From contig NC_047029.1 of NCBI RefSeq assembly GCF_902652985.1, forward strand, positions 38,440,001 through 38,504,000: DNA of 64,000 bases, in the 5' to 3' direction. Made by a program: the position numbers and the translations under genes. Below, piece by piece: positions 1 through 59,400 of the stretch. The notes beneath the pieces are model-generated. The model saw only the letters and a program-made list of their open reading frames with translations. It searched no databases and had not been told where the DNA came from. The stretch's first letter is position 1; each line of letters starts with the position of its first letter. The DNA comes from Pecten maximus (Eukaryota).

Positions 1-609
1 GTTCGCAGTTGTTTTATATATTCTTGAAAATATATATAGATTTTATCAATTTATTACTTGAAAGAATAAACCTACTGGTTTTTTTGGTATGATGTGAACT
101 AATTTGTAATATTTGTATACGTTTCCGAATTTGTCAGTTTTGTATATTGATCAGCGGCATTTCAAATTAGGTCATATCCTTACACCACACCTGATTGTGA
201 AAAGAATATACATTGACACAAAACCGGTAATTTCATTCTCAAAATATCCTTTCTATTGTGGTAGAAACATGTCACACAAACTCGTGGTTGTTGTATATGG
301 TATACGCTAAAGCTCGTGTTTTTGTAACATTTGAAAAATAACTCGAGTGAAAGAAATACCATATACAACTTCAACTCGTTGTGAAACCTCTATATATACG
401 AGACTCCGAATTGTTTATGGTATGTGTTTGCTGCAGAATGTTACCCAGACGTGTTAGCGTATTTGTTTTCTTCCTATTTTACCCACAAACTGGGTCGGTC
501 GGCAAAACCGCGAAATATGACTCCCATAAAATTTAGCAGATATACAATATCAGCAAGACTAGCTTTAAAACAGCAAGTAATACATAGTGTAACACTGTAT
601 ATCTTTTAT

Positions 610-2992
610 TTAATATCTGGTACAGTCAGCAGACGATCTCTGAGTACAGGTGTCATCAGAGGCTGTTTCTGTGTATCCAGTAGCTGTGGTCAACCCGGAT
701 CCTGTTGAAGTAAAAATAGCAGTAAATGTGATGTATATATAACAATCTATATCCTTATATGTGTATTCATATATTATAACGCGATGATTGATGTTTACAT
801 ATGTAAGCAAAACCAATCATTAGGTAAGTCAATTCTAAATACTATCACGTGTCTGCATGGGTTAGAATACGATAATTCTATCAACTACTCTTTGTGTAAA
901 CTGATGAGTTAGAAATCTTACTCTTGTTATGTGAATGACCGTATGTCATTTTGTGATATTCGACAATAGATATATAGCTGAAATAAATTTTAATGAAAAC
1001 AAATGTCACTGAACATGTCAAAATGGAAATGAACTCAAATTGTCAGAGAAGCGAAGTAAAATCTTTAAGTATAAATAACTAATAAGGTGAGTAGCCTGGT
1101 CACATATCGTGAATTTGTAAGCCTAAGATAAGTGTTTCGTATAGTGGAGATAAGAACCGGTTCACTCAGAATTACTCCATGAGAACAACCACCTGTCCAT
1201 GCTTGCGTAAATGATAAGGCGATGTTATTTGTATTTGTTTTCCTAATAAACCCCACTTACGCCCATTTAAACGTTTTGTAACACACAAATTAAGGTGGTA
1301 CTAACCTTCCAGCAGATTGAACATGTTACAGTAGTTTGTTCCCGCGTCTAGAACAGCATACCAGGTTTCGGCAGTAGAGTAACCCTACAAAGTGACAAAC
1401 AAACAACATAAACTAATTATTCTCTAATTAGGAGTATACAGTGTCGTCCATAAAGTCACACACACTCTTTTGACTTGTTGAAATATCAGTGAATAATTAG
1501 TGAATCAAAAGATAAATATTTGCAAGTCCTTGACGATATTGTTCCAAAAATTATCTATATGCTTTTAAGCTAATGTTAACAGAAACCCCCGACCAAATGA
1601 AGTGTAAATTATAGATTTGGTTCCTTCCTCTGATGGAAGAAAAATCACCCCGATAAACATAGATATAATTTCGAGTCCAATTATACATTTTAATTTGTCG
1701 TAAATTTGGCGTTTTCGCTCGGTACGTATAGTTAGCTTATTTATTCTGTGAAAGTAAGTACTTAATTTAACAAACTAAAATAACATATTATTGCAAAAAA
1801 TGTCGCATTGTGAGTATTTGTATATCATCAATAACTGCATGGACTTTAGATAGACTATAAAAGTATTACCATCAGAAGCCAACAGAAAATAAACAGAATT
1901 TCAAAACTTTTTTCTGCAAAGTGCATATAACTCATGGATTGCAATGTATATATTTCTTATGGATAATTAATTTTGCGAAGTTTTCATTGCGAAATCATAT
2001 AAAACTGATGATCTTAATTCTACATTGATAGCTGGTAACTTTAGAATAGATGTAAGGAACTTTTTATTCTTTTGTACAGTTTAAGTAACTGTGTAAATGT
2101 TAAACAGTTTTTCAGGCAAAGCCCGTCCAAAAACAGCACGTTTTGTTATCAACATTTACATCAATATGACAGGAGTCGTCTTGTGACGTCAGAGTGAATG
2201 TTACGTCATCAATATAGTGCTTCAGTGGGGTTTCATGGGTCAGCTTCATTACACCACCGCTGTTACTTTTTAGCTAGAAAAGAGTAAAACAAACAGCATG
2301 TTATCGTTTCAGCACAAACACTTTCACGGTAAATAGACATGGATTTTATTACAGAAAGTGCACCGTGTCCTTGATTACTAGGCATCATAAACACAATATT
2401 TCGTTACAGAATAATATTCTTCTCATATAATGTATTGTATAATGATTGTCTGAAATATTCGATCTTAAAACGAATTAGAATATAGTTTGTTGAACATGCT
2501 TCCATACCACATATAAACATTTCTCGTTGATAGGTCCAGATTTACAGTTTTCTGGGCCTGACCAGGTACGGATCTGGTTTAGTAAAGCCGTTTCCACTTG
2601 GCTGCAGGCCATTCCTACCGACCTGGGGAAACATTAACAAGTTAATCGGGTAATCAGAAAACAATCCTTTCAGAACAACATTGTAGTATATACACTTCCT
2701 TCAATAAAATCATAGATATTGGTACCAAAATGTGCATTTACCAAAATGATATGCATGTTCATAATTATATTGTAAATTATGCATTTAAACATTCTGAACA
2801 GTTCAGTAAAAACACAAAGCTCTTTTAGAAAAATAATTTCCCATCTACATATTTAAATATATATATATATGTGTGTGTGTGTGTATACCATTGTGCCTTG
2901 CATGATGCATGCGCGGGTCCACTTCCGAACAGAAAAGCTAGAGAGGAACCCGTCAGGCTCAGGAACAAGACGATAGATATGCAACCCTTCAT
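610..2992 (-). CDS. Uncharacterised secreted cysteine-rich protein, paralogue B (167 aa, 5 exons)
   Basis: Spliced by hand with GT-AG introns and consistent phases: 2992-2889, 2622-2508, 2273-2160, 1384-1306, 701-610 (504 nt). Protein: MKGCISIVLFLSLTGSSLAFLFGSGPAHASCKAQWSVGMACSQVETALLNQIRTWSGPENCKSGPINEKCLYVLKSNSGGVMKLTHETPLKHYIDDVTFTLTSQDDSCHIDGYSTAETWYAVLDAGTNYCNMFNLLEGSGLTTATGYTETASDDTCTQRSSADCTRY. Hydrophobic signal-peptide-like N-terminus and 8 Cys in the mature part. Same exon structure as 5095-8102. Confidence 0.92.
1573..1730 (+). mobile_element. Truncated copy of the small TIR element at 3929-4201, in intron 3 of paralogue B
   Basis: Shares ATGTTAACAGAAACCCC, cctctgatgg and aaatttggcgttttcgc blocks with 3929-4090; no right TIR seen. 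Confidence 0.55.
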
Positions 2993-3018
2993 AGTGTAAC
3001 AAATGGACGTAAGGAGTC

Positions 3019-3057
3019 AACTGAAAAGCTAGAGATCAAATCCCGTCAAATTTATAG
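3019..3057 (-). promoter_or_regulatory. TATA box plus initiator of paralogue B
   Basis: Minus-strand TATAAA (3056-3051) and TCAGTT Inr-like motif (3024-3019), about 30 nt upstream of the ATG at 2992. Confidence 0.5.
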
Positions 3058-3358
3058 CACGATCTTTGTTGTCTGAACCAAGGCATTGTTAGCTTGATAC
3101 GGCACGAGTTGTTATGTATGTTATACATTTGATACGAATAATAATTTACATCAAATAAAGGAAGGTTTCCTTTCGCTGTATTCTGCCACTCAAAGTTGTT
3201 TTATTGTATATTGAATTAAAACATGTTGTGTAAATTGGTTGACGTTGTTTGTATTTGGCTACTAAGACATTAGCTGTAAAGATAACAAAGATAAGGACCT
3301 CTATATACCTTATCTATCGGTCAATATAAATACTAGTGTGATTAGTCGGAAACTATCA

Positions 3359-3582
3359 GGGGCCGCGGTGGCCAAGTGGTTAAGGTGCCATGTCCTGCCA
3401 CTGTATCACCAGCCCTCCACCTCTAGGTCGCGATTTCGAAACCCACATGGGGTAGTTGCCAGGTACTGACCGTAGGCCGGTGGTTTTTCTTCGGATACTC
3501 TTTCCTCTACCTCCAACACATGGCACGTCACTAAATGACCCTAGCTGTTAATAGGACGTTAAACTAAATAAACCAATAAACC
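3359..3582 (+). mobile_element. tRNA-derived SINE (copy 1)
   Basis: GGGGCCGCGGTGGCCAAGTGG A-box head, TTCGAAACCC B-box-like motif, central GGTGGTTTTTCT.CGG.TACTC block resembling V/Meta-type SINE cores, and an AAACC-type tail. Clear second copy at 27580-27800. Confidence 0.8.
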
Positions 3583-3928
3583 AAAAAAAGTCAAACACTA
3601 TAGTTAGGATATCTATCTTGATACACACCGGGTAAACGAACGTTTTTGCAATATTTTAATGTCATAATGCCAATGTGTTAAGGTGCCTGTACTTCTGCTG
3701 TTATTTCGAAATGTGTGTGTGTTGTCCCCTGGCAAATAGCTATTGCAATGAAAATGTACGAATGAACCTAACTCAAACTTGATATCGTAACCTCGTCTGT
3801 TCAAAGTTTAAACACATTTATTGGTATGTAAAGAGGTGTAACAGCAAAACTGGAAAATAGGAAATAAGCAATAATTAATGTAATAGTATTATGTACAGTA
3901 TAGAGCGACTTAGGTAGCTTTTATGGTA

Positions 3929-4201
3929 ATGTTAACAGAAACCCCGACCAGGCGACGTGTAAATTGGAGATGGGTTCCCAACTTCCCTCCTCTGATGGAA
4001 AAAATCACCTCCAATAATGATAGATTTAATATTGAGTTTAATTATACAATTCAGTTTATCATAAATTTGGCGTTTTCGCCCTGGACGTATTTAGAATTTG
4101 TGTACAATTGTAATCCTTTTAATACGTTGTATGGACGTACCAGACGTTAACGATGTGACATGAATATAACGTGTATGGACCTTTTGTATTTCTGTTAACA
4201 T
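3929..4201. mobile_element. MITE-like element with 13-bp terminal inverted repeats
   Basis: ATGTTAACAGAAA (3929) and TTTCTGTTAACAT (ends 4201); partial second copy at 1573; no clear TSD. Confidence 0.55.
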
Positions 4202-5094
4202 CGGTTCTGGTTGCCCTAATGCCAACATTTCCTGTATTGTTGTCGGTACTATCAGGTCTTATGCAGGTAAATCATGGATTGTGTTCTATTACTAACGACT
4301 CGAGCCAATGCTTGAAATCAAGATAGACCTATATACAAATCTATTTCATAATCTTAAAACCAATATTGGAATGGTTTAATGCCTTCTTAGAATTTTACTA
4401 CAGGCAATCCAGTTTTGAAACCCGATGTCGACAGCACAACCGGTGTTATGTTGAGAAATCATCTGGACGTTTTACACCTGTGTGTTTCCGACAAGAGCAA
4501 TGAACATCTTAGTACTTCTTAATCATTATATCTTGGCAGTTTGGTGCATATACTTCAAATCAATATAAATCACCACTACATAAAAACATACCACAAAACA
4601 CCATTAATATGATGAAAAAAGATTTTCACACGAACTGCTTTCGAGAAAACACCGCTCATTGGCTGCATTTGCTGGGGTCATTGTACATTCTATTGATTAT
4701 ATGTCATGAGGATCGAGAGGGTGGTTTTGTTTTGAGGTTATATATTTAGATGAAGGTTTTAGAATACATCATAGCATATATATATATATATAGATTGCAT
4801 GTTGTACTATACGTATATTTACTTCCACTGTGTAGTTGCTTTTAAATCATCATACCACTTATATCAGTCTTTACCGATACGTATCATTTATGACAATATA
4901 ATTATCGTACCACTTTATCGAAATATAGGTGTTAAGTGTTTCACGGAATCCTGGTATCATATACTTTCTCAGAAACAAACCTACAGTCTGATAGGACCCA
5001 GGTACGTGTATTGTTTTCCGTTTCGAAAACGATTTTGATGATTTCATGAAATTATGTATCAATAATAAGACCAATTGACCTGAGTTGTTTTATT

Positions 5095-8000
5095 TTAATA
5101 TCGTGTACAGTTGGCAGACGAGTGTTGAGTACAGATGGCGTCACTAGTCGTCTCGGTGTAGCCAGCAAGTTGTGTAAGCTGTGAACCTGTAGAAGACGAA
5201 TTATATATACATGTACTGACATAAAAACAATGATGTCCAGTAGGATCTGTGTATCAGATATATGTGATATCCGTACTCTTTTTTGTATTTAACGTACAAA
5301 TTATACTGTATATAAAATTAATTTACTCGAAATCCCCTCATTGAGGAATATTTACCGATTGTAGGTGGCATTCTTTACATTTGTTTTGAAACAATCCTAG
5401 CCACCTCTCATTTAAGAACGCGCCATTATCTGAGTTGAGTAGCTGAAGACGCCTACCTTTATAAAATGCATGGCTATATTCTCCGTGTATATTATGGCTC
5501 CTCTCATAAGCCTATATGATGTTAATTCCCCGTTATTTTTTGTTGTTGTTGTTGATTTTTTTGTTTGTTTTTTTTTTTAAATATTTTCTCCTGTTGTTAT
5601 TTATTATACTAGTTATTTTTGACGTTAGTATTAGGTTATATTGTTATCATTGTTCAGTATATTGGTTTTCATTGTCAACTTACCTTCCAGGAGATTATAC
5701 ATGTTACAGTAGTTGGTCCCGTAGTCGAGTACAGCATACCATGTCTCTGCCCTTGACATACCCTATAAAGGCACCCATCAGTATTATCATAACTTCATCA
5801 ATATAAAACCTGCTGGTATATAACTTCATCAATATATTACATGTTTGTTTATAGATTCATTAATATATTCCATGTTGTTATATAACTTCATCAATATATC
5901 TATTGTTTGCATATACTTCATCAATATATTTCATGCTGGTATATAACTTCATCAGTATATTACATGTGTGTATATAACTTCATCAATAGATTACATGTTT
6001 GCATATAACTTTTTCAATATAGTACATACTGATATATAACTTCGTGAATATATGACATATTGGTATATAACTTCATCAATATATTACATGATGGTTGATA
6101 ATTTCATCAGTATATTACATGCTAATATATAACTTAATCAATATATTACATGTTTGCATATAACTGTATATATCAAATGCTGGTATCTAACTTCATTAAT
6201 AAATCATATGTTGACTTTGTTTTTTCTATATTACATATTGGTATATAACTTCATCAATGTATTACATGTTGGTATTTAACTTCATCAATATGTTATCTGT
6301 TTGAATATAACTTCATTAATATATTACACGCCGATGTTGGTATATAGCTTAATCAATATATTTCATGCTGGAAGATGAATTCATAAATATATATCATATG
6401 TTGGTATATAGCTTCATTAATATACTACATGTTGGTATATAACTTAAACAATATACTACATGTTGGTTTATAACTTCTTCAATATATTAGATATATAACA
6501 TGCATATAAAATGCACAAACACGTATTGCGGTATGTACATATACAGATGAAGGTTGAATTAGGTAATAAATATTGGTTTGAAGTATTTGGTACATTCACT
6601 TAATTACTTATTGTACTATTTTATAACAGAAGACTTCAAAATGATCACACTATATCTTGTCGTTTGTTTCTTAGTTGTTATTCTTCGCTGATAATATTTT
6701 ACTGGCGTATAAAACTGTTAATTCTTACAAAACGGCCTTTAGATTTGAAATTACACCAAACCCTTAGCATGCCGATCCATCGGTGCTCAGTGACCCCATA
6801 GAGCGCGTGATTGGTATATAAGAGTTGTCTGACTTACCTTGACTGTACACTGACCACCACTGGGGGTCATGTCTCCGTCGGTTAGTGTAAACGTGATGTC
6901 ATCGATGTAATGCTTCAGTGGTGTCTCGTGAGTTAGTTTCAGAACGCCACCTGAGTTACTTTTCAGCTGAAAAGGGGCACGACGAAAAGTAGCTTTTATC
7001 AACAGAGAAATACTATAAAATCAGCAGGTATCAGTAAAATTACGTATTAGCTGAGTTACTCGTTAAATAAAACATATTACACTGTACTCCTCCTTGAACA
7101 ACCGACTACATGAACTCGAAAAAACAAAGTTCTTGATAGGATAAGAAAATATGACACTTATCACCGACTATATGACTTCCAATTGATAAGAAGGGTCTTG
7201 CAATAATAATAATAAAGTATGAGATGTACCATCGCCTTCATGACCTTCAAAATATAACAAAAGTCTTGATATGATATGACATACCATTTCAACGCCTTGA
7301 TATTCATGTATCCTGACTGGAAGTATTCAAAATGTTATTTTACTTAAGACTTAAAAGAAATGTTCTCATTTTGCAAGATAAGCTGACTCTACAGACCACA
7401 TAGAGGCATTTCTCGTTGGTTGGTCCTGATCGACAGTTGTCAGGCCCACTCCAAGCCTGAACTTGCGAGAGTAAACTTGACAGTATGGTATCACAGCTCT
7501 TTCCGAACGTCCTACATCACAAAAACATGACTTTAGGTAGATACGTAATCATTTATGAACATAGCTACATAATTATGAACTTATCATTTTAATGGGATTG
7601 TAAACTGATGCTGATCTAATAAAAAATCTTCTGGTAAATTAGAAGTTTGAAGACTGTAACATTTGAAATCACTTATCATCGTTATTGACGGAAGGATTCT
7701 TTTGTAAAATAAGTTGCAGTGACTGCGGAACTCGTTATTGGAAGTGCAGTTCTTCAATAAATGATTAAAACATAGTTATGTTTCGGTTTCAATATTTGCA
7801 GATATCTAATTTGCGTCGATTCAATCAAGTTATAAAATGATTCATGCACAGTACATAATTGCTTTCAGACAACATACTGTTGAATGACATATTGTTTTCA
7901 AATAGGTAGATTATTTCATGTTCAGCTTTAAGCTTTTTTTTTAGCTTACTTATATAAGTATATAATGTATCTATGTATATAATGTTTACTGTGTTACCTA

Positions 8001-8102
8001 CCACGTGGCTTTACATGAGGCGTGAGCAGGACCGTTTACGAGGAAACCTACAGAGGTTCCAATGAGGCAAAAAAGGCCAGCAAGCGCTACGTATCCTCTC
8101 AT
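5095..8102 (-). CDS. Uncharacterised secreted cysteine-rich protein, paralogue A (171 aa, 5 exons)
   Basis: Exons 8102-8002, 7511-7397, 6966-6838, 5762-5684, 5186-5095 (516 nt), all GT-AG and phase-consistent. Protein: MRGYVALAGLFCLIGTSVGFLVNGPAHASCKATWTFGKSCDTILSSLLSQVQAWSGPDNCRSGPTNEKCLYVLKSNSGGVLKLTHETPLKHYIDDITFTLTDGDMTPSGGQCTVKGMSRAETWYAVLDYGTNYCNMYNLLEGSQLTQLAGYTETTSDAICTQHSSANCTRY. About 70% identical to paralogue B in the mature region by hand alignment. Confidence 0.92.
5785..6490. repeat. Degenerate 31-bp tandem array (about 22 units) in intron 3 of paralogue A
   Basis: Consensus TGGTATATAACTTCATCAATATATTACATGT; starts about 20 bp from the exon 4 acceptor. Confidence 0.85.
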
Positions 8103-8123
8103 GTTGTAATATCGAGATCACCA

Positions 8124-8160
8124 ATATCTGGAGCAAGTCAGCGATCTGCTCTTTTTATAC
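8124..8160 (-). promoter_or_regulatory. TATA box plus Inr-like motif of paralogue A
   Basis: Minus-strand GTATAAAAAG (8160-8151) with CCAGAT 30 nt downstream and the ATG at 8102; mirrors the layout of paralogue B. Confidence 0.5.
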
Positions 8161-9260
8161 TACCACGCTATTACGATAAGGATGGCCTTATTTTGTATGA
8201 CGTGTGTGTGGCGTGTTAACGGAATATGGGCTTCCTTTTTACTTGGTCATGTACTCATTTTACTATCTATGTTCTACCGTCAGATTGTTGGTACAGTTAC
8301 TAGACAGTCAGATTTTCGTAATCCCAGCTGAAATAGATTTAAACATTTAATTCAGTCAGTAAAATTCTATATAATATATACTTGGTTAACTGGAATACTC
8401 GAAATATCTCGAATGTTATAACATAACTCCACTAACGTGGATGCGACAAGGATCGAGTGTAATCTTAGACTGATTCCTCACCGATCGTATTGTCTGTAAA
8501 TTGAGTTGCTTAGCTGTGAGCTTGGCTATCTCTTAATTGATTTCTGTTTCACTGCCAAATTGATTTTGTGGTTGTTGTCGTTATTGTTTTAATTGTGTTT
8601 CTAATCCCATATCAAGACTTGACAGGTATTCCTGGTTGTAAGTCTTAACAAGCGAAAGAGCTTTTTTTTATTTACCAACAAAAAGGACGCATATCCAAGT
8701 GAGTAGTGAGGATATCTGTTACGTGTACCCTCCAAACAACTGTTGAAAAGGATTTGATCCTTCCAAAGTATATTTGTTAATTTTTCCTTCAAAACCGTGT
8801 ATTTAGTTATCATCATAAGGGATAACTTTGACCTTATCTCGATCTGTAACACAAATATGGAGTACTTGATAAGTTCATTTTGATAATCAATACAAAACGT
8901 GTGTGTATAAAGATACAATATCAAAATTCCAAAGGACAACGACACCTCTATTTAGTCATAGCATTGTTTATTTATAAAACATAAATCATATACTCAAAAG
9001 GAAAAATAAATAAGGCAAATAAAATAGTCCTTCATGTTTCGTTATCGCGAACTCTGGTAACTCGAAGACTCTGCTTAACTCGAAGTAAAATTCAGGTCTG
9101 ACAGTTAAAACGACATACAAAATATTATCGGTGACATGGAATGATCGGGCTATCTCAAGTTTTGTTATGGCCAACTTACTTCGAGATAACGAGATTCGAC
9201 TTTAATTCCATGTCTGTAATCACCTCTAGTTACGCGGTGATAATTCCTGACAGAAATCTA

Positions 9261-12200
9261 TTACAAATATTTACTGATTAGTCTGAACAGAACCAAGCTT
9301 CTGTCGACAATCATTCCAGTCACTTGTATCAGTGGTGTGAGACCTAGGGACGAAATCATGACAACACTGAAAATCGTCTTATTGTCCATGAGTTGAAGCA
9401 AAAGTCCATAACACGCGCACAGTACGATAACCCATACGGCGTTGATAGAGAGAAACCAAATCACTACTTTCTTTCTAGTTGTACGCAGCCCATTTGTCCT
9501 TTCCTCTGACGTCATACCTCCTTTAACGTTTACTCCAATAACATTATTGACAACTTTCTCCCAAAACGAAACTTCGTCCTCATTGAAGTTTTGAAGATCC
9601 AGTACAGAACTGTTCAAACTTGTGTAGGACCCTGTCGGACAAGGAAAATACTTTATAACAATACATCTACTACTGTTTTCCTTTAATAAAGATAGTCATG
9701 ATAGCAAAATTTCGCAAGATTTTATCGTATTGAGCAAAATACTTTCAGAATATTACCAAAGATCTATTTGGCATCATAACAGTTGCTTTCCTATACATTA
9801 ATTTGCTATTTCCATGGATATGGTTTCACGAGCAATTATAATTATGCTTGATCTTTTGTGATTTGGATGATGAAACAAGCAATCAATGCTTAACATACAG
9901 TAGATACTCATGTGTAAGTATGAAAACGAAAGGAATTATTCTCACTATTTAATTTCAAATGGTGTTAAAAGGTATTTCTGTTCACACCAAAGTATATTTC
10001 TAAATTACTCAGTCCTATATAAGTTTTCACCTTTAGGCGACGGTAGTGATTTCGCTTTCTTCTTCTTTTTTCTCTTTTTCAATTTCGGTAGACTTAAGAA
10101 CTTCGGTACTTTTGCCAATTGCTGTAAACATGAAAGGAAAACAAAAATATTAATCAAACTCTACAAATCTGCAGACGGTACGACTACAATCTATTTCATA
10201 CATTTCAAAAGTTAGTTGTTTGAAAAGAAATCCGCCTAACGAAATATCGTCATTTAATGTTGAGCAAATGAATATCAATCATCCGAAGTTTTAATGAAAC
10301 CTACACAGGTCTCCGATCAATATTTTACACAATTTTCACACTAAGTGAAATTTACAGCTGGAAATGTAGAATTGTTATTTCTCATCAAACTATGTAACAG
10401 TGTAATCCATCTTTAGCTCTACTTTTTAAAGTGAGTGGTCCTCATATCGTATATGTCTTTTGTTCAATCCTTTGGAATTGAGCTGGTAGACTTCAGTCCC
10501 AGAGGTTTGCCATGTCACCTTTTAATTCATTTGAATAGAGGCACCTTTCAGAAGAGCTTGGTGTTCGTTTGAAATCAAACATTTTAAATAACCAAACATA
10601 TTGATTTAAAGGTCCAATACACCTTCCAATCCACATTGTTTGATCTTATTTATTTTTCTTCGTCGTTGCCTAAGCCTTTTCCAAATATGATCAATGACGA
10701 GTCGTAGAAGGAAGACTATTGTATGGTGCAGTTATTTTGTTTCTGTCTACATCATGTAACTCTCATAGCCAACTACTTACTATTAAAGTTATCCCTAAAT
10801 GTTACAGGTACTTACGTTATCTCGAGTTCCCCAGGACTGATCGACAATGTTACACAAGGCATACACTGGTAGAATTATGTTGAGCAGTGGGAGAAAGAAC
10901 ATGTAAGGCAGGCCGTACAACAGCATCGGCAGTTCAGACGGGTGAAGTAATGCTGCCAAGGGGTAGGTGGCCGCTAGGGACAGTATCAGAATATACTCGA
11001 TGTGCCGGATCGTTTGTACTTGGTAATCTGAAAAAAATATTTATATAAATTTACAATCTAACGTTACTTGATCAATATCATTTTTTTATCTTCAATATGA
11101 TGAAAAAGTGTTTGAACAGTTTTGATTTTGTTGAAAAGTATTTGGCTTTTTTTCTAGATATGGGAACCGCTATCAATTACATTTGGACATTTTGATTATC
11201 ATTTCGCTAGTAAATTGAATTTCATCATTGAATTATATGATCTTACTGTAGTCAGTACATTGAAGCATACCTTGAATCAGTGCTTGAACGATGATTACAG
11301 ACGTTGAACCAAATACAAACAACGTCCCCAGTCCTAACACTATTATGAGTACTTTGGATATCACCAATTGTACTGAAGCAGGTATGTCTTTGACCAGCAC
11401 AATGCTGTACCCAACAATCAACAGGTAAAATGTTGGAGTTATGGCGAAAAGAGGTATCCCTGAGCCTAATTCAAGGCCGAGTGACAACATCATGACGGTA
11501 GCTCCAGGATACAACACCATGATGATGAAAAGTTGTACAACGTACAGAACGTAGGTTAAAGAGAATGCTGAGTTGAGGGTCATCAGATTGGCGATGTTTT
11601 GGATAACTAGTAAAGCGTTTGTGTAGTCCGACAGTAGCCACCGTCTTCTTTGCTTCATAAACTCTAAAGTTGTCTCGGGACAAAACGTGCTGTTTCGCCC
11701 GGTCTGTATATATCTAAGTTTCCAGCCTTTCAACATCATAAGCGTACACATCCACCGATCTTCACCTGATAACACAAGCATCGGTTACACATAAAAATCA
11801 ATTTGATGACAACTTTGGAAAATTTTATGTTTTGATGATTATGGTCGCGTTTCGACTCACTAGCAGTTTAACGGATGTTACGTTATTAGTGATTATATTA
11901 GTTATTTCAAAGGAAAATAAACTCTTAACTATCAAATCCTTATTGAGTTAAGCCGACGTATATTTCAATAATAGTTAATTTCGATGGTACATCATATACT
12001 GTAAATGAAATGTTAGAAAGAGCATCCCCAGACAATACAACGTAGAATTCGCAGGAGACAAAGTCCGTCCAGTACATCATAACATTATAATAGGAGAAAC
12101 TAGGATGCCTTACCATTATCCTTTGTGAACACATCCATCACTGTCTCGGTGGGACTGGCGTATGTTGAGAAAATATCAGATAAGGCTTCGAATCGAAACA

Positions 12201-15200
12201 GACTGAAACATCCGGGACAGCACATCACGGATCCAATCACATTCTGAGAACTCTTTATCATCCAGAAATCTATCATAATAATAGAAAGTCGTTTGCAGAT
12301 TTATTCAGTTGACATTCATTAAATGAAATGAAAATTGTTAATCCACTCACATTGCAGCTGAAATGTTTTAATTGCGATGGAGATTGATCTACAATATCGC
12401 ACTGATGCAGTTTACGACTCACTGCAAAAATATTTTTGGAAGGAAATTTCTCAAGATAAACACAGCTGTTATAGTTTTCTCTGAAGTCTTACTTCAGATT
12501 TCAAAGAATTTCAAAGTATTGTGCAATAAACACAAGCGGATGATACCCCTGAATCACGGTTTAGGTATGTATAAGTTCAAGGAGTAGTGAGTTTGCAGCC
12601 AGCCGGGATCGAACCCTCGACCATCGGGTTACTGGTCCGCCGCTCTACCGACTGAGCTAAAAGGAAATCCCCCCAGCCCGAAGCTAGAAGGCGACCATAC
12701 AACTATGTACAGTATTTACAATTAAAACACTGCTACAGGTATATAAATTATGTGTGGTTAATGATAATGAACCTACCTTTGGCAAATTCAAACATTTGAA
12801 GCCAGAGAATTGGATGTCTGTAAAGTCCAGTTGGATAGGTCCTACCACAGACTCCTCCAACATCCGGGTTCTCTTTACAAGCATCCACAACTGCAAGGAC
12901 TGCGTCATCGTCGAATGACATGTCGGCGTCTGTCATGAGGATGTAATCGTCCATAGATTTTGATAAATGAGGCCCAGAAGTATTGGACATGGATAGAGAC
13001 ACAGAGAAAATAGTACTATCCTGTGTATGGATTTCCAATGGGGTTTCCTTCACAAACAAATCACTTCCGGCTCGACTCGGAGTCTCACTTGGGTAAAAAC
13101 TGCCATCGTTTGATGCCATGTCGATTGTGAAATTGTCAGCCGAATTGCTGTCCGTGTCGTCCCCGGCATGATTAAGGATAATGTCGGGAATGTCCAAAAA
13201 GTTACCGCTAGAATATGTCGAATTTTCTTTACCTGTACCATTGGACAAATAATAGTCATTTAACCTATCCAAAGAACCTGTAGAACCATATGCAAATGAG
13301 GGATTAGAGGACATGGTTTTTGATTCGTATGGAGTCTGTGTACCTCCCCATTTAGACCTGTATTTGAGGACATACTCTAAATACATCACCTGGCTCCATC
13401 GCTTCTTTGCCTTGACCTTTTGTGTGTCTTTAAGGTGTATAAATAATGGAGTACCACATTCTAACACCCAGTGTAATTGTATCCCATAAGGTGTGTATAG
13501 CAGTATACCAGACTCGGGTCGAAGTTCAATCCTTTCCTCCACTAAAGATAATAACTGTTTCCCAAAGTCTTTCATTTCCTTACCATCCGCTCCATTGTCA
13601 AGGAATATGTGAGATTCTATGTAGATATTTTTCTCCTTGAGTTTCTGTGATGTTATTACACAATCTAAGCTTCTAAGAAGCCTGTCCATTTCGTGTTCCG
13701 CCTCTTGGTACATTGTAGTACAAATATAAACTCTTGATGGTTTGTTCCTATCGCGTGAATCCTGTTCGTGAGTATGTTTTCTAAATATTTTCTGTTGTAT
13801 CAACAAAAACTGGAGAAGGAGTACGGAGTTGTAACGATACAATGTTTTTTCTTCTTTAGTAGTTCCTGGATTCTTCTCAAATTTGCGAAAGCACTGAGGT
13901 ATCATCATCAAGCAAATTGGCAGCAATGTAAGAATACCACACATAATAAACACAGCTATTAGATCAGAGGTTACTGGTATATAACTCAGGAATGAATCAA
14001 ACATTTCAAAATTGACCTTTCCGTGTTCTATAAGGATTACAAAAAACAATGAAATGAATAAAGGAGACAAAAGCCAGGGGCAGAACTTGGATAATGGTGA
14101 TTTAGTTGGGACCATGTACGACGCCAATGAAATAAACGAAAAAGAGATATGTACAACAATTAATATATGTAAATTTTCTAAACTACTAAATACTTGAAAG
14201 CCCTTAATTAACTGTCGAAAATCAAGGGAAATGGATCCGATAGTGTCAGTGTTAAAGCACATGAAACAAAACAATAGATATGTTAACATCCTCAGCGATC
14301 CGTATAATAATGATGTGTTATGAAATGAAGCATCCGAGTGTCCATGGATGTGTTTTAGGGCGGGCTCATACAGGTTTATAGACGCTCCGATAAGTAAGAA
14401 TGGCAACATGGCGGATTGGTATGGTAGAAGTATGTCCGAGGTAGATAGGAAGATACTTGATACGATCCCAGCTACAAAGATGGTCATGCAGCAAAATATC
14501 CGCAATGTAGGTTCCATACACGTGTAGACATGTTTGTTTCTAATCGCCTGAGAAAACAAATACTGCTTGTTAAAACCCAATATGGATACATCAATGTTGC
14601 AACAAATGTTTATAATGTTGTACGTTGTCGAACAAACATTTAAAAATAAAGTCATTGATATCCCTCATGCCCTACTGTATCACGTATAATTTCAACTTTA
14701 GAGTGACGAACTCGGGTTATTTCTAATTAACCTCAGAGTATATAGCTATAATACAATAAGGTATTTAACACTAAATACCCAGATGTCGCATGTCTCATTC
14801 CCAACATGGGACGCTACTCTGAGGTATTCTAAGTTTTTGTACTTTCTTACCCCCCCCCCCCCCCCCCCCCCCCCACACACACACACCCACCCCCACACCC
14901 CCATCAAATTAAACTCAATTGTATTTATGATTTGGATGTTATAGACACAGACGCATTGACCACAGCACTAACGGGTACACCACCTACCTTGACTGACTGT
15001 GAGAGTTCCGGCAGCAGTGAGAAGTTCAGTATCGGCAACATTATGTAGCACGGCATCCGGGGCAGGATAACGTATGTCAGCATTGATATGCAGCTAGCCT
15101 CAATTATACTAAGGATGATACCCTGAATAAAAAAAGTGGTAACTAGACAATACTAAATTAGCTCTCAGTATGTTGGAATAAAAATTCCTCTTATTATTTG

Positions 15201-22185: not shown

Positions 22186-22611
22186 GTTATTTGGAAAATC
22201 CGGAAGGCAAAACCATTTCCTTGTTATCAAGGATCATCGAACGTAATTGATACGTTGTTATCAAAGTGTATATTATTTTATTCAAAGCTTATCATTTCCG
22301 CATTAAAGGTCTATAAAGCATTTCGCATAAAACACTCAGCTTGAAGCATTTGTCACTGAACATTGAAAATAACCTTGAAGCATTTATCAATAAGCATTAA
22401 GGATTTAGCCAAAATGGTTTATGCTTAATGGGGAATGTTTTAATGAAATACATTTATATCCTTTGTAACTTGAAAAAACTGAGTGCTCTTCAGATAATTC
22501 CTTTTAGTATAATTATCTTGAATTAGGATTTTCTTCGTTAACAGCAGAGTTGCCTTATGTAGGAATATCCTGCATCACTTACTGCATTACCATCCAATTT
22601 GTGGCTGAATG

Positions 22612-23223
22612 TCCCTGGCGATAGTCCTGACATAACGTGGGCGTATCCCTGGCGATAGTCCTGACATAACGTGGGCGTATCCCTGGCAGTAGTCCTGACA
22701 TAACGTGGGCGTATCCCTGGCAGTAGTCCTGACATAACGTGGGCGTATCCCTGGCAGTAGTCCTGACATAACGTGGGCGTATCCCTGGCGATAGTCCTGG
22801 CATAACGTGGGCGTATCCCTGGCAATAGTCCTGACATAACGTGGGCGTATCCCTGGCAGTAGTCCTGACATAACGTGGGCGTATCCCTGGCAATAGTCCT
22901 GACATAACGTGGGCGTATCCCTGGCAGTAGTCCTGACATAACGTGGGCGTATCCCTGGCGATAGTCCTGACATAACGTGGGCGTATCCCTGGCAGTAGTC
23001 CTGACATAACGTGGGCGTATCCCTGGCAGTAGTCCTGACATAACGTGGGCGTATCCCTGGCAATAGTCCTGACATAACGTGGGCGTATCCCTGGCAGTAG
23101 TCCTGACATAACGTGGGCGTATCCCTGGCAATAGTCCTGACATAACGTGGGCGTATCCCTGGCAGTAGTCCTGACATAACGTGGGCGTATCCCTGGCAGT
23201 AGTCCTGACATAACGTGGGCGTA
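22612..23223. repeat. Homogeneous 34-bp minisatellite, 18 units
   Basis: Unit GTCCTGACATAACGTGGGCGTATCCCTGGC(AG/GA/AA)TA; produces the 34-aa periodic ORFs in all three minus frames. Confidence 0.95.
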
Positions 23224-23279
23224 CAAAGATTGACCCCTTACCAGCCGAATGGAAGGTACTATAACCTCAGAATGTTCAA

Positions 23280-24048
23280 AGTTAACAGTCAGACATATCT
23301 TTAACGACCAGTGTATTCAAAAGCGGACAAGCGATGATTTAATTCTTGAAAGTCTGTGTGTTATAGAATGATTAGGAAACCTCAGAATGCAAAAATCATA
23401 TTGAAAAGCTAGATCATAGTGACCGGATTACACTTTACCGCTTACCATAAATTTATAATTTGAGCAAGGTGGAAGACAGAATTTACACATATTGTAGTAA
23501 AGGAAAGGTTGGAGACGAGTTTCACTATATTCTTAGCATTTAATAGATTTATCAGTAAAACAAAGTTTTATTTTGAAGATTTATTTTAGGAGAATAAATA
23601 TAATTGAAATTCAATTCTTAATGAATACTAATGATATTGACTGATACTGAAATGTGTAAATTTATCCGATTTATATTTCCACTGTTTTTCCTCCATGATA
23701 AGTTTATAAATGTAGCTATTCCATCAAGTGTGAACACCCTAATTGTATGATAAGTTTATAAATATAGCTATTCCATCAAGTGTGAACACCCTAAATGTAT
23801 GATAAGTTAATAAATGTAGCTATTCCACCAAGTGTGAACACCCTTATTGAATTATAAGTTAATAAATGTAGCTATTCCATCAAGTGTGAACACCCAAATT
23901 GTATGATAAGATAATAAATGTAGTTATTCTATTGAGTGTGAATACCCTTATTGTATGATAAGTTTATAGATGTAGCTATTCCATCATGTCTGGTTACCCT
24001 TATTGTAGGTATATATTCATGTTTGTAAAGAGATTGGAATCAATAAAT
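23280..24048 (+). mobile_element. Degraded LINE (CR1/L2-group-like) ORF2 C-terminus and 3' end
   Basis: 23475-23537 reads DRIYTYCSKGKVGDEFHYILS, a decayed R-x-C-x-x-C...G-D-E-F-H-Y zinc-knuckle stretch; AATAAA near 24043. Boundaries approximate. Confidence 0.55.
23695..24005. repeat. 52-bp tandem array (about 6 units)
   Basis: Unit ATGATAAGTTTATAAATGTAGCTATTCCATCAAGTGTGAACACCCTAATTGT; starts at 23695 and 23747. Confidence 0.85.
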
Positions 24049-26567: not shown

Positions 26568-27985
26568 AACAGAAGATCCAAGAGTGATCGTGACGCCTGC
26601 CATTGAATGATCATTATTTTATTCATTTGTATATTTTCCTTTCCTAAATTAACCAATAACAAGGAAGTATTCGTATGAAATCTAAGAGATATCTTAGAGG
26701 GAGAATTGTCTGTGAATTAGAAACAGCAACGCTAAACTTAAACTGTTAGCAAGTTTGCTTTCTTGATCAGACTAACAATCAAACTGGTACAACTAGGGAC
26801 CAAGGGGAAGCTTACACAGAAATGAAAATACTCGTATACAATTATTTTGCTAGATTTGGTTTGTTTTATGGTAATCCTAAATACGTCTTCAACAAAGAAC
26901 CAGGGTCATATACAGACATTAACTTTGTCCTTGATCTTTTCAACCAAGTGTTATTTACTTTTGACCCAGTTACCTTGACCTTTAGTAAGCTGACTACTTG
27001 TTTATTGTCACAAACTTTTCTTCATGTAATGTCATCACGAAATGTTCTGTAGTAAATAGATAGAAAACGTGACACGGACTTTTGACCTAGTTACCTTGAC
27101 CTGAAGACAGATGACTCATTGTTCAATTCTTAGTAACTTTGCTTCATAATTTCTTACTTAACAAATTGATCATCAGTGAAATGATGCAAAATTTTACCTT
27201 GGCCTTTGACACACATCATTGCCTTGATTCCTTTTTTAATTCTGAACAGATTTGCTCCATAATGTCTTAAATAGATGTTCTTCAGTCTAAAGGTACAAAA
27301 TATGACATAAACATTTGACCCAATGACTTTGACCTTAAATCAGCTGACTCTTTGTTTAATGCTGATTAACTTTGTCGCCTAATATCCATTAGTGAAAAGA
27401 TACTAAATTTGATCTTGACCTTTGACACCATAAGCTTGACCTTTTAACAAAATGTCCATCAGTAAAAGATACAAAATGTCACCTTCGCCTCTGAACCCGA
27501 GACATTGACTCCATGTTCAATTCTACCTAATTACTTTGCCTCATAATGTCATTAGAGAAAAGATGCAAAACTTGATCTTGCGATGGCCGAGTGATTAAGG
27601 TGTCCCTATACTTTATCACTAGCCCTCCACCTCTGGGTTGCGACTTCAAAACCTACGTGGGGCAGTTGCCAGGTACTGACTGTAGGCCGGTGGTTTTTCT
27701 CCGGGTACTCTGGCTTGCCTCCACCTCCAACACCTGGCACGTCCTTAAATGACACTGGCTGTTAATAGGACGTTAAACAAAAATAAACCAATCCAAACCA
27801 AAATGAGCTTGACCTTTGACAACATGACTTTGACCTTTGGTCAGGTGACTCCTTGTTTAACCTTGAACAAATAGGGGAACCTATCAGTGAAGTTTGAGAA
27901 TATCTACTACGGACCACGTAGAACCTATCAGCGAATCTTGAGGAAAATCCATCCAGTATTTCTCAAGAAATAGCGACAACAAACA
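26568..27985 (-). mobile_element. Degenerate Helentron-type non-autonomous element (related to 61683-63456) with internal GACCTTGACCTTTGAC-rich repeats
   Basis: Shares CCATTGAATGATC, ACTAGGGACCAAGGG and TCTCAAGAAATAGCGA.AACAAAC blocks with the 62-63 kb element. Confidence 0.55.
27580..27800 (+). mobile_element. tRNA-derived SINE (copy 2), nested in the 26568-27985 element
   Basis: Colinear with 3359-3582: AGCCCTCCACCTCT, GTTGCCAGGTACTGAC, GGTTTTTCTCCGGGTACTC, GCTGTTAATAGGACGTTAAAC. Confidence 0.8.
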
Positions 27986-56416: not shown

Positions 56417-59400
56417 CCAGTGGTCTGTAGGACAGTGTCGTTTGGCGATTTTTGTAATGGAGGACGATTAAAGCTATCACTGTTAGGGTTAACAAAGCAA
56501 CCATACAGCCCAGGACCACCATACCAATATCGATGTCTGCAAACAAATAAATAAATAAAAATAAAGATACTCTCATTAATTAATTAGCAAATTCACATGA
56601 TTTTATTACATTTTCTCAAGTGAAATATTAGAAATGATCAACTTGATGAAATTTAAATCATCACTGCATGCTTCTATCATCACTAGACTAGTTGAACACC
56701 ACATACATCACTCATTTGACAGATTGTATACCAATATTTTGTCATACTTGGTAATAATGAATTATATGTTATATTCAACAGGAACCCAGTCAATACACAA
56801 ATTACACTAGGTAAGTTTTGTATATGCAAAATACACTCTGGTATAATTGTAATGTAAGTGCCAAAGTTTCAATAAGTACATGTAGATACAACTACCGGTT
56901 CAAGGTATGTTTTAATTAAAAGTTGACAGCAATACCCACAGTACTAAAGCATTTATCTTGCAGTCTGGATCATAAGGTATACACATATATATATGGCCAA
57001 TATAAATACCACAGGTTTGAAGACAGACATAATTCTGCATGCTAGAATGCTAAATTGACAGTTCTTACAACAGCGCAATGTTTAGACATTGAAGCTGATT
57101 CTATAGATCAGTGATATTGAGGACAGGCCTTTAAGTTTCCAACAGGGAAGAAACACAGGGTATGTCACTATGGTATGACTGGTGTTGTCATATTTATCAC
57201 TAAAGTCCATGCAAAATCATATGTTAGTGAGCGTCCCTATACCATCTTATCATATGATAGTGAGTGTCCCTATGATACCATCTTATCATATGATAGTGAG
57301 TGTCTCTATACCATCTTATCATATGATAGTGAGTGTCTCTATACCATCTTATCATATGATAGTGAGTGTCCCTATGATACCATCTTATCATATGATAGTG
57401 AGTGTCCCTATACCATCTTATCATATGATAGTGAGTGTCCCTATACCATCTTATCATATGATAGTGAGTGTCCCTATGATACCATCTTATCATATGATAG
57501 TGAGTGTCCCTATACCATCTTATCATATGATAGTGAGTGTCCCTATACCATCTTATCATATAATAGTGTGTGTCCCTATACCATCTTATCATATGATAGT
57601 AAGTGTCCCTATACCATCTTATCATATGATAGTGAGTGTCCCTATGATACCATCTTATCATATGATAGTGAGTGTCCCTATACCATCTTATCATATGATA
57701 GTGAGTGTCTCTATACCATCTTATCATATGATAGTGAGTGTCCCTATGATACCATCTTATCATATGATAGTGAGTGTCCCTATGATACCATCTTATCATA
57801 TGATAGTGAGTGTCTCTATACCATCTTATCATATGATGGTGAGTGTCCCTATACCATCTTATCATATAATAGTGAGTGTCCCTATACCATCTTATCATAT
57901 GATAGTGAGTGTCCCTATACCATCTTATCATATGATAGTGAGTGTCTCTATACCATCTTATCATATGATAGTGAGTGTCTCTATACCATCTTATCATACG
58001 ATAGTGAGTGTCCCTATGATACCATCTTATCATATGATAGTGAGTGTCCCTATACCATCTTATCATATGATAGTGAGTGTCCCTATACCATCTTATCATA
58101 TGATAGTGAGTGTCCCTATGATACCATCTTATCATATGATAGTGAGTGTCCCTATGATACCATCTTATCATATGATAGTGAGTGTCCCTATACCATCTTA
58201 TCATATGATAGTGAGTGTCCCTATACCATCTTATCATATGATAGTGAGTGTCCCTATACCATCTTATCATATGATAGTGAGTGTCCCTATACCATCTTAT
58301 CATATGATAGTGAGTGTCCCTATGATACCATCTTATCATATGATAGTGAGTGTCCCTATGATACCATCTTATCATATGATAGTGAGTGTCCCTATACCAT
58401 CTTGTCATATGATAGTGAGTGTCCCTATACCATCGTATCATATGATAGTGAGTGTCCCTATGATACCATCTTATCATATGATAGTGAGTGTCCCTATACC
58501 ATCTTATCATATGATAGTGAGTGTCCCTATACCATCTTATCATATGATAGTGAGTGTCCCTATGATACCATCTTATCATATGATAGTGAGTGTCCCTATA
58601 CCATCTTATCATATGATAGTGAGTGTCCCTATGATAACATCTTATCATATGATAGTGAGTGTCCCTATGATACCATCTTATCATATGATAGTGAGTGTTC
58701 CTATACCATCTTATCATATGCTAGTGAGTGTCTACCATCTTATCATATGATAGTGAGTGTCTCTATACCATCTTATCATATGATAGTGAGTGTCTCTATA
58801 CCATCTTATCATATGATAGTGAGTGTCTCTATACCATCTTATCATATGATAGTGAGTGTCTCTATACCATCTTATCATATAATAGTGAGTGTCCCTATGA
58901 TACCATCTTATCATATGATAGTGAGTGTCCCTATACCATCTTATCATATGATAGTGAGTGTCTCTATACCATCTTATCATATGATAGTGAGTGTCCCTAT
59001 GATACCATCTTATCATATGATAGTGAGTGTCTCTATGATACCATCTTATCATATGATAGTGAGTGTCCCTATACCATCTTATCATATGATAGTGAGTGTC
59101 CCTATGATAACATCTTATCATATGATAGTGAGTGTCCCTATGATACCATCTTATCATATGATAGTGAGTGTCCCTATGATACCATCTTATCATATGACTG
59201 ATGAGAAGATTACTCTTAATTTTTTTTCTTAATATCTATAAGCATAAATGTATCAAATCTAAAAAAATTCATAATCAAAACTCTAAATGGCTGTGATGAA
59301 ATAAAACCTTTACATATGCAGGGAATGTTGTCATCATTATTTGGGTGACAGTTATATTCATAGACTACAATTCTATCTAGTTAGATTATACCATAACTTT

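What the first reader, a model, noticed from the sequence alone, without database searches (positions are those of the whole stretch)
610..8102. Tandem paralogue pair defines a conserved secreted domain, possibly an animal relative of DUF1499
Seen: identical 5-exon structure (exons 2, 4 and 5 are 115, 79 and 92 nt in both), about 70% mature identity and 8 invariant Cys. Conserved motifs are PAHASCK.W, NEKCLY, THETPLKHYIDD and AETWYAVLD.GTNYCNM.NL, while the introns show no evident similarity, which indicates purifying selection on both copies. Inference from recalled motifs: TP..Y.DD..F...V...S.....D.G.N resembles the F.DD.EF...VRSASR.G..D.GVN pattern of bacterial/plant DUF1499. Invariant H, DD, D and N residues suggest a binding or catalytic site.
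Basis: partly seen in the sequence, partly recalled or inferred. Interest (0 to 1): 0.7.

Follow-up and report, generated by a model that had tools for sequence, protein, structure and literature searches.

The report
Ancient secreted DUF1499-related protein family
Two neighbouring, expressed scallop genes belong to a small cysteine-rich protein family, predicted to be secreted, that is found from protists and sponges to frogs and is a distant relative of the bacterial and plant DUF1499 proteins; its conserved site likely binds a small molecule, but nobody has tested what it does.

Summary
Observation confirmed. Two 5-exon minus-strand genes (A 8102-5095, B 2992-610) give 171 and 167 aa proteins that match RefSeq 'uncharacterized' Pecten maximus records. 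RNA contigs support all 8 introns. Mature identity is 72%, 8 Cys are shared, synonymous sites are saturated and dN is 0.26. They are two of a tandem trio; a fourth, membrane-anchored copy lies 25 Mb away. The family has 1,090 hits among 50%-identity cluster representatives and spans protists, algae, sponges, corals, arthropods, fish and frogs. The DUF1499 link holds as remote homology: HHalign 87-95%, 58 of 71 members hit PF07386 weakly, the third paralogue passes the cut-off, and both AlphaFold models share a KA1/BamC/helix-grip topology. A and B themselves miss the Pfam cut-off and lack DUF1499's Arg-rich motif. Conserved polar residues fall on the helix-facing side of the sheet. Best reading: a secreted or lysosomal small-ligand binder (0.4); rival: a small enzyme (0.3). 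Hints are lipocalin and papain fusions and a fish paralogue (wu:fc46h12) that marks xanthophores but has lost much of the motif. Function is untested. No earlier scan note on this family was found. The complex predictor was unavailable.

The parts
8002..8102 (-). Gene A exon 1 (ATG, predicted signal peptide, PxHASC motif); RefSeq LOC117343961
   Evidence: joint 7510-8001 in runs X3, X6
7397..7511 (-). Gene A exon 2 (helix 1, C60-C69 loop)
6838..6966 (-). Gene A exon 3 (strands 3-5; H85, T87, Y92, D94)
5684..5762 (-). Gene A exon 4 (S118, W123-Y124, D128, N132, helix 2)
5095..5186 (-). Gene A exon 5 (Cys-containing tail ending in Tyr; stop, followed at once by AATAAA)
   Evidence: (joint seen in X2 and X3 only, depth about 5)
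2889..2992 (-). Gene B exon 1 (ATG, predicted signal peptide); RefSeq LOC117344366
2508..2622 (-). Gene B exon 2
2160..2273 (-). Gene B exon 3
1306..1384 (-). Gene B exon 4
610..701 (-). Gene B exon 5 (stop overlaps AATAAA). Gene C of the trio follows outside the window (L005 8667-5379, minus strand)

Best explanation
These are two expressed scallop paralogues of an ancient eukaryotic branch of the DUF1499 superfamily, predicted to be secreted or lysosomal, disulfide-locked helix-grip-like proteins that likely bind and carry a small amphipathic ligand. Shown: gene structure, splicing, purifying selection, family range and remote homology to DUF1499. Predicted: a hydrophobic leader, then a five-stranded antiparallel sheet packed by two helices plus a Cys-rich tail, with disulfides C40-C112 and C60-C69 inferred from joint loss and two more likely. 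Inferred: D94, S118, S120, D128 and N132 (shared with bacterial DUF1499), with eukaryote-specific H27, H85, Y92, W123, Y124, Y133 and the terminal Tyr, form a polar-plus-aromatic site where the sheet meets the start of helix 2. That is the side on which START/Bet v1 proteins hold ligands. The site would grip a polar head group and shield a hydrophobic part (lipid or pigment-like) in the extracellular or endolysosomal space. The ligand's identity is a guess.
For: AlphaFold pLDDT is 87.8. Structural neighbours are KA1 (Z 10.1, rmsd 2.4, 95 aligned), Aha1, BamC and START/Bet v1 (Z 7-9). The conserved polar strand residues H85, T87, D94, S118 and S120 share register with core hydrophobics: that face has a mean top-residue frequency of 0.71 against 0.35 on the open face (95 dereplicated domains). 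69 of 70 members have a hydrophobic stretch before HASC. Of 9 members with long N-terminal extensions among 267 proteins, 4 carry lipocalins and 1 a papain domain. The fish paralogue wu:fc46h12 marks xanthophores (PMC6594659 passages; 10.1101/527341 legend) and is listed with carotenoid/pteridine genes (PMC11773731 passages).
Against: The top structural matches (KA1, BamC, adaptin appendage) have no ligand cavity (own knowledge), and Z of 8-10 is only a fold-level match. No coordinates were available to check a pocket, so the buried polar cluster could be purely structural. The lipocalin fusions fall in one weakly supported clade (SH-aLRT 82), so they may be one event. wu:fc46h12 is a fast-evolving teleost paralogue, not an orthologue; it has lost Y92, D94 and N135 in 3 of 3 rows, and W123 in 2 of 3. 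Its knockout is homozygous viable, with maternal-zygotic heart oedema and no pigment defect in the passages read. Bacterial neighbours give no recurring partner (117 of 148 scanned). About 45-50% identity from scallop to sponge and protist is enzyme-like.
Confidence: 0.4

Rival explanations
1. A small secreted or lysosomal enzyme (hydrolase, lyase or isomerase) that uses H85/H27-D94/D128 with S118 and N132 as an acid-base centre on the helix-grip scaffold.
For: S118 99%, D128 99%, N132 98%, H27 91%, D94 91% and H85 90% in 165 domains. One papain fusion. Helix-grip enzymes such as norcoclaurine synthase, fern hydroxynitrile lyase and polyketide cyclases are among the fold matches.
Against: Neither His is kept in bacterial DUF1499, and H85 becomes Arg in 16 of 164 domains. 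No catalytic family matched in Pfam, NCBIfam or PDB sequences. The enzyme matches are fold-level only.
Confidence: 0.3
2. A glycan-binding (lectin-like) secreted protein, for example in innate defence or matrix, using W123/Y124 stacking and D128/N132/D94 hydrogen bonds.
For: Trp/Tyr plus Asp/Asn is a typical sugar-binding set (own knowledge). W123-Y124 lie in a loop beside D128. There is lineage-specific tandem duplication, and a chitin-synthase-like gene lies upstream.
Against: No lectin fold is among the 50 best structural matches. The 'C-type lectin' labels are automatic names with no Pfam support. The neighbour's linkage was not tested in other genomes.
Confidence: 0.15
3. A protein- or membrane-docking module like KA1, BamC or adaptin appendages, with the conserved polar residues merely structural.
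For: These are the best-scoring folds for both models. Six members have two full tandem domains, and a type II membrane-anchored paralogue exists.
Against: The open sheet face, which such modules often use, is variable and polar (0.35 conservation, 0.25 hydrophobic). The mature proteins are acidic (pI 4.8-5.7), unlike basic phospholipid-binding KA1 domains (own knowledge).
Confidence: 0.15

Closest known systems
DUF1499 / PF07386 (bacterial, cyanobacterial and algal/plant, e.g. Chlamydomonas CPLD48)
   Same: Helix-four strands-helix core in both models; aligned (F/Y)xDD, SxS and DxGxN motifs; N-terminal hydrophobic leader; 32 of the top 50 structural neighbours shared (overlap counted by eye).
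   Different: Four disulfides' worth of Cys, an N-terminal HASC strand, a W-Y loop and a 30-residue Cys tail ending in Tyr. No Arg-rich SASR/NRxR motif and no N-terminal Cx(3-5)NC motif. About 15-18% profile identity; A and B are below the Pfam cut-off.
Zebrafish/teleost wu:fc46h12
   Same: Same family and Cys frame; the only member with expression and knockout data found.
   Different: A fast-evolving teleost paralogue lacking several conserved site residues; not the orthologue of A or B.
Helix-grip / TBP-like fold: KA1 domains, BamC, Aha1-C, adaptin appendage, START/Bet v1 (PYR/PYL, norcoclaurine synthase)
   Same: Antiparallel sheet wrapped on a C-terminal helix; Z 7-10, rmsd 2.2-3.8 over 90-120 residues.
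   Different: 5-16% identity and no sequence-level hit in PDB. The shorter five-stranded sheet and the disulfides are not features of START/Bet v1; a cavity was not shown.

Membership tests
DUF1499 (PF07386) as curated | Pfam gathering score of 22.6 bits or more | tested here: not met
   A has no hit and B scores 13.5 bits, E 0.1. Paralogue C scores 25.7, and 3 of 39 scanned relatives reach the cut-off. 58 of 71 members hit at E<=1.
DUF1499 (PF07386) as curated | Arg-rich RSASRxG..DxGVNRxR motif and N-terminal Cx(3-5)NC motif | tested here: not met
   Only SxS and DxGxN are aligned; no Arg is conserved. Cx(3-5)NC is in 45 of 56 bacterial rows. The Arg motif was imposed by my search pattern, so its invariance in A2 is by construction.
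DUF1499 superfamily (remote homology) | Significant profile-profile similarity above controls | tested here: met
   HHalign 87.1%, E 4e-6 and 94.7%, E 6.4e-8. Bacterial HMM on 71 eukaryotic proteins: median 10.3, max 19.2 bits, against a shuffled max of 5.7 (710 shuffles). Reverse direction: median 8.1, against a shuffled max of 6.1.
DUF1499 superfamily (remote homology) | Same predicted topology | tested here: met
   Helix-E-E-E-E-helix order in both models, pLDDT 87.8 and 93.1, with shared neighbours. The two models could not be superposed directly.
DUF1499 superfamily (remote homology) | Export from the cytoplasm (signal peptide or lipoprotein signal) | tested here: inconclusive
   Hydropathy only: 69 of 70 eukaryotic members have a hydrophobic leader, and 10 of 56 bacterial rows have a lipobox-like match. 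SignalP was not available.
START/Bet v1 (SRPBCC) ligand-binding superfamily | Helix-grip fold | tested here: inconclusive
   Z 7-9 over 105-120 residues, tied with or below KA1/BamC. Best Foldseek E 4e-4 with TM about 0.3.
START/Bet v1 (SRPBCC) ligand-binding superfamily | Enclosed hydrophobic cavity with bound ligand | not testable with these tools

The most novel reading that the evidence does not exclude
An unrecognised, near pan-eukaryotic secreted or lysosomal enzyme or lipid/pigment carrier, descended from bacterial envelope DUF1499 proteins, kept at about 50% identity from protists to frogs, possibly lost in amniotes, and co-opted in fish pigment cells. The scallop proteins would be a simple handle to give the whole DUF1499 superfamily its first biochemical function.
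Probability: 0.3. Interest if true: 0.7.

Novelty: new variant of a known kind. Interest (0 to 1): 0.42.

Why it matters
DUF1499 has no known function in any domain of life in the papers searched. Linking it to a strongly conserved, small, disulfide-locked eukaryotic family with a predicted site, a zebrafish mutant line and lipocalin fusions makes the function directly testable. The genes are already annotated as uncharacterized and one paralogue already carries a PF07386 hit, so what is new is the family-level link, the fold and the fusion context, not the locus.

Tried and rejected
PDB sequence search with profile A1: no hit better than E 2.7. NCBIfam: no family in more than 2 of 71 members. 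Viral fold library: nothing specific. Close prokaryotic relatives: none in GTDB genome contigs (6 pattern matches, 0 confirmed) or in plasmids; both searches have limited sensitivity. PF07386 search of the own genome found 0, because exons are scored separately. Conserved bacterial gene neighbours: none; at most 3 LysR among 117 of 148 neighbours scanned. An ML/NPC2-like identity for the N-terminal parts of P0094 and P0114 was suspected by eye but had no Pfam support at E<=1. Cystatin-like inhibitor and C-type lectin readings: neither fold is among the top 50, so inconclusive. The homodimer test could not be run because the complex predictor was unavailable; dimerisation is open. Amniote absence: no amniote name among 79 + 58 rows, but those searches are word-limited and the 1,090 representatives are unnamed, so loss is not shown. 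Literature searches: DUF1499 (4 papers); PF07386 (1); 12 locus or accession ids (0; underscores were stripped); fc46h12 (6 counted, 4 listed); COG4446/At3g60810/IPR010865 (3); CPLD48 (3); a five-term xanthophore query (0); a recalled PANTHER/zebrafish name (0). None gave a function or linked this family to DUF1499. Supplementary tables were not read and subscription papers are not covered. Earlier scan notes: none by sequence; one unrelated note by words.
Full report
Observation. Splicing by coordinates gives gene A (8102-8002, 7511-7397, 6966-6838, 5762-5684, 5186-5095; 171 aa) and gene B (2992-2889, 2622-2508, 2273-2160, 1384-1306, 701-610; 167 aa). All introns are GT..AG with phases 2,0,0,1, and exons 2, 4 and 5 are 115, 79 and 92 nt in both. 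Mature identity is 103 of 143, 8 Cys columns are shared, pS is 0.76 (saturated) and dN is 0.26; only exons match by blastn. Both products equal RefSeq 'uncharacterized' Pecten maximus proteins, LOC117343961 and LOC117344366. RNA contigs from 2 studies join 7 of 8 introns and bridge the eighth in 3 of 4 runs. These are contigs, and two runs are only guessed to be RNA, but spliced joints argue for mRNA.

Surroundings. The genome holds 4 matches to exon 3. Gene C (LOC117344249) lies head-to-tail about 1.9 kb past B, just outside the window. Gene D, 25 Mb away, has a longer N-terminus with an internal hydrophobic stretch, suggesting a type II anchor. All four share five exons and the same phases. 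A, B and C form a scallop clade (96/95), and A is sister to B with its orthologues in Argopecten, Mizuhopecten and Ylistrum (100/98), so the A/B duplication predates those genera; bootstrap had not fully settled. A chitin-synthase-like gene lies upstream of A.

Range. phmmer found 79 relatives among 116 candidates, in sponges, corals, molluscs, a brachiopod, a nemertean, a bryozoan, hemichordates, a rotifer, Artemia, fish and protists, at mostly 40-67% identity. Alignment A1 used 71 of them; 8 short or partial rows were dropped. Its profile finds 1,090 cluster representatives at E<=0.001. A second profile added a ray, gar, frogs, amphioxus, a barnacle, insects and a haptophyte; no amniote name appeared, which is weak evidence. 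All named members are uncharacterized, except that teleost ones are called wu:fc46h12.

DUF1499 test. A has no Pfam hit and B scores 13.5 bits (cut-off 22.6). However, 58 of 71 members hit PF07386 at E<=1, the next family has 7, and paralogue C scores 25.7. The Arg-rich motif is invariant there by construction; the DD is not imposed. HHalign gives 87.1%, E 4e-6 and, with a more diverse eukaryotic alignment, 94.7%, E 6.4e-8, aligning (Y/F)xDD, SxS and DxGxN. Cross-HMM scores exceed reversed and shuffled controls both ways. The ESM Atlas also lists a cluster with 19% PF07386 members at 0.90 and 0.88, a lead only.

Fold. The model of A (pLDDT 87.8, pTM 0.80) is signal helix, strand 29-36, helix 40-53, strands 71-77, 80-86, 93-102 and 112-120, helix 131-142 and a short tail strand. 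A bacterial DUF1499 model shows the same helix-four strands-helix order (pLDDT 93.1). Both match KA1 domains, BamC, adaptin appendages, Aha1 and START/Bet v1 proteins at Z 7-10, with 32 of 50 entries shared (counted by eye). Foldseek ranks START/PYL proteins first but weakly. This is a common fold and shows no function. Joint loss supports C60-C69 (11 joint, 3 single losses) and C40-C112 (2 joint, 0 single); the other pairings are unresolved.

Site. In 165 well-covered domains of 247, S118, D128 and Y71 are 99% conserved, N132 98%, the terminal Tyr 95%, H27, D94 and N135 91%, H85 90% and D95 74%. In 95 dereplicated domains, H85, T87, D94, S118 and S120 share strand register with core hydrophobics, and that face is twice as conserved as the open face, 0.71 against 0.35. 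I infer a polar site where the sheet meets the start of helix 2, on the side where helix-grip proteins hold ligands or catalytic residues (own knowledge). This rests on alternation, not on coordinates. The His residues are not in the bacterial proteins.

Functional hints. Among 267 proteins, 6 carry two full domains and 9 have long N-terminal extensions: 4 lipocalin (one from a brown alga) and 1 papain. The lipocalin fusions may be one event. Zebrafish wu:fc46h12 is expressed like the xanthophore marker gch2 at 24 hpf, and later in ventral crest, heart and dorsal aorta; its knockout is viable and maternal-zygotic embryos show transient heart oedema (PMC6594659, passages). It is named a new xanthophore marker (10.1101/527341, figure legend; PMC6588384, passages) and is grouped with carotenoid/pteridine genes in spotted scat (PMC11773731, passages). 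Against using this: it is a long-branch teleost paralogue that lost Y92, D94 and N135. For DUF1499 itself, the passages read gave no function (PMC9425974, PMC3597751, PMC3186191, 10.1101/2021.03.31.438001). The two At3g60810 papers (PMC11477042, PMC10690477; passages) treat it as uncharacterized; its identity as DUF1499 is recalled. PMC5752677 only lists the fish gene. Bacterial neighbours do not recur.

Mechanism. Best: an exported small-ligand binder or carrier, probably for an amphipathic lipid- or pigment-like molecule (0.4). Rivals: a small enzyme (0.3), a lectin-like protein (0.15), a docking module (0.15). Shown are the genes, their expression, selection, range and remote homology. Predicted are secretion and the fold. 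Inferred are the site and its use. The oligomeric state is open because the complex predictor was unavailable.

Verdict. It is a new variant of a known but function-less kind: a disulfide-rich eukaryotic branch. I recall, unverified, that PANTHER may already group these animal proteins; a paper search for the recalled name found nothing. Interest 0.42.

Noticed in passing
window 9264-14664, minus strand: Chitin-synthase-like gene upstream of gene A (EDR and QRRRW motifs; PF03142 21.6 bits, below the cut-off on a single exon). Linkage in other genomes was not tested.
   Followed up: partly
window 400-8400: Junction-contig depth flips between studies: A 618-917 against B 9.5-62 in runs X1/X6, and A about 5 against B 365-560 in X2/X3. 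A weak hint of tissue-specific expression; the tool warns that contig depth cannot rank genes.
   Followed up: no
L006 3020-6483 (G000:C15, about 13.18 Mb): Fourth paralogue with a cytoplasmic-type N-terminus and an internal hydrophobic stretch (likely type II anchor), with an orthologue in Mizuhopecten; similar long-leader forms occur in amphioxus, Artemia and insects.
   Followed up: partly
window 3357-3586: Dispersed repeat with very high RNA contig depth and a second copy at 27580-27803 (83%). It looks like a tRNA-derived SINE by eye; ARAGORN found no tRNA.
   Followed up: partly
window 5789-6489: 31-bp minisatellite, 22.6 copies, in gene A intron 3.
   Followed up: no
window 1561-1729 and 3917-4090: A 170-bp element shared at 78% between B intron 3 and the A-B intergenic region, same orientation.
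   Followed up: no
window 5089-5094 and 606-611: Both genes have AATAAA directly at or after the stop codon, suggesting very short 3' UTRs.
   Followed up: no
window 22541-23316 and 57121-59235: Long tandem arrays that give spurious repetitive ORFs.
   Followed up: no
P0128, P0130, P0138: Near-identical domain copies attached to different N-terminal modules (lipocalin against Cys-rich repeats), suggesting recent module swapping in a protist lineage.
   Followed up: no
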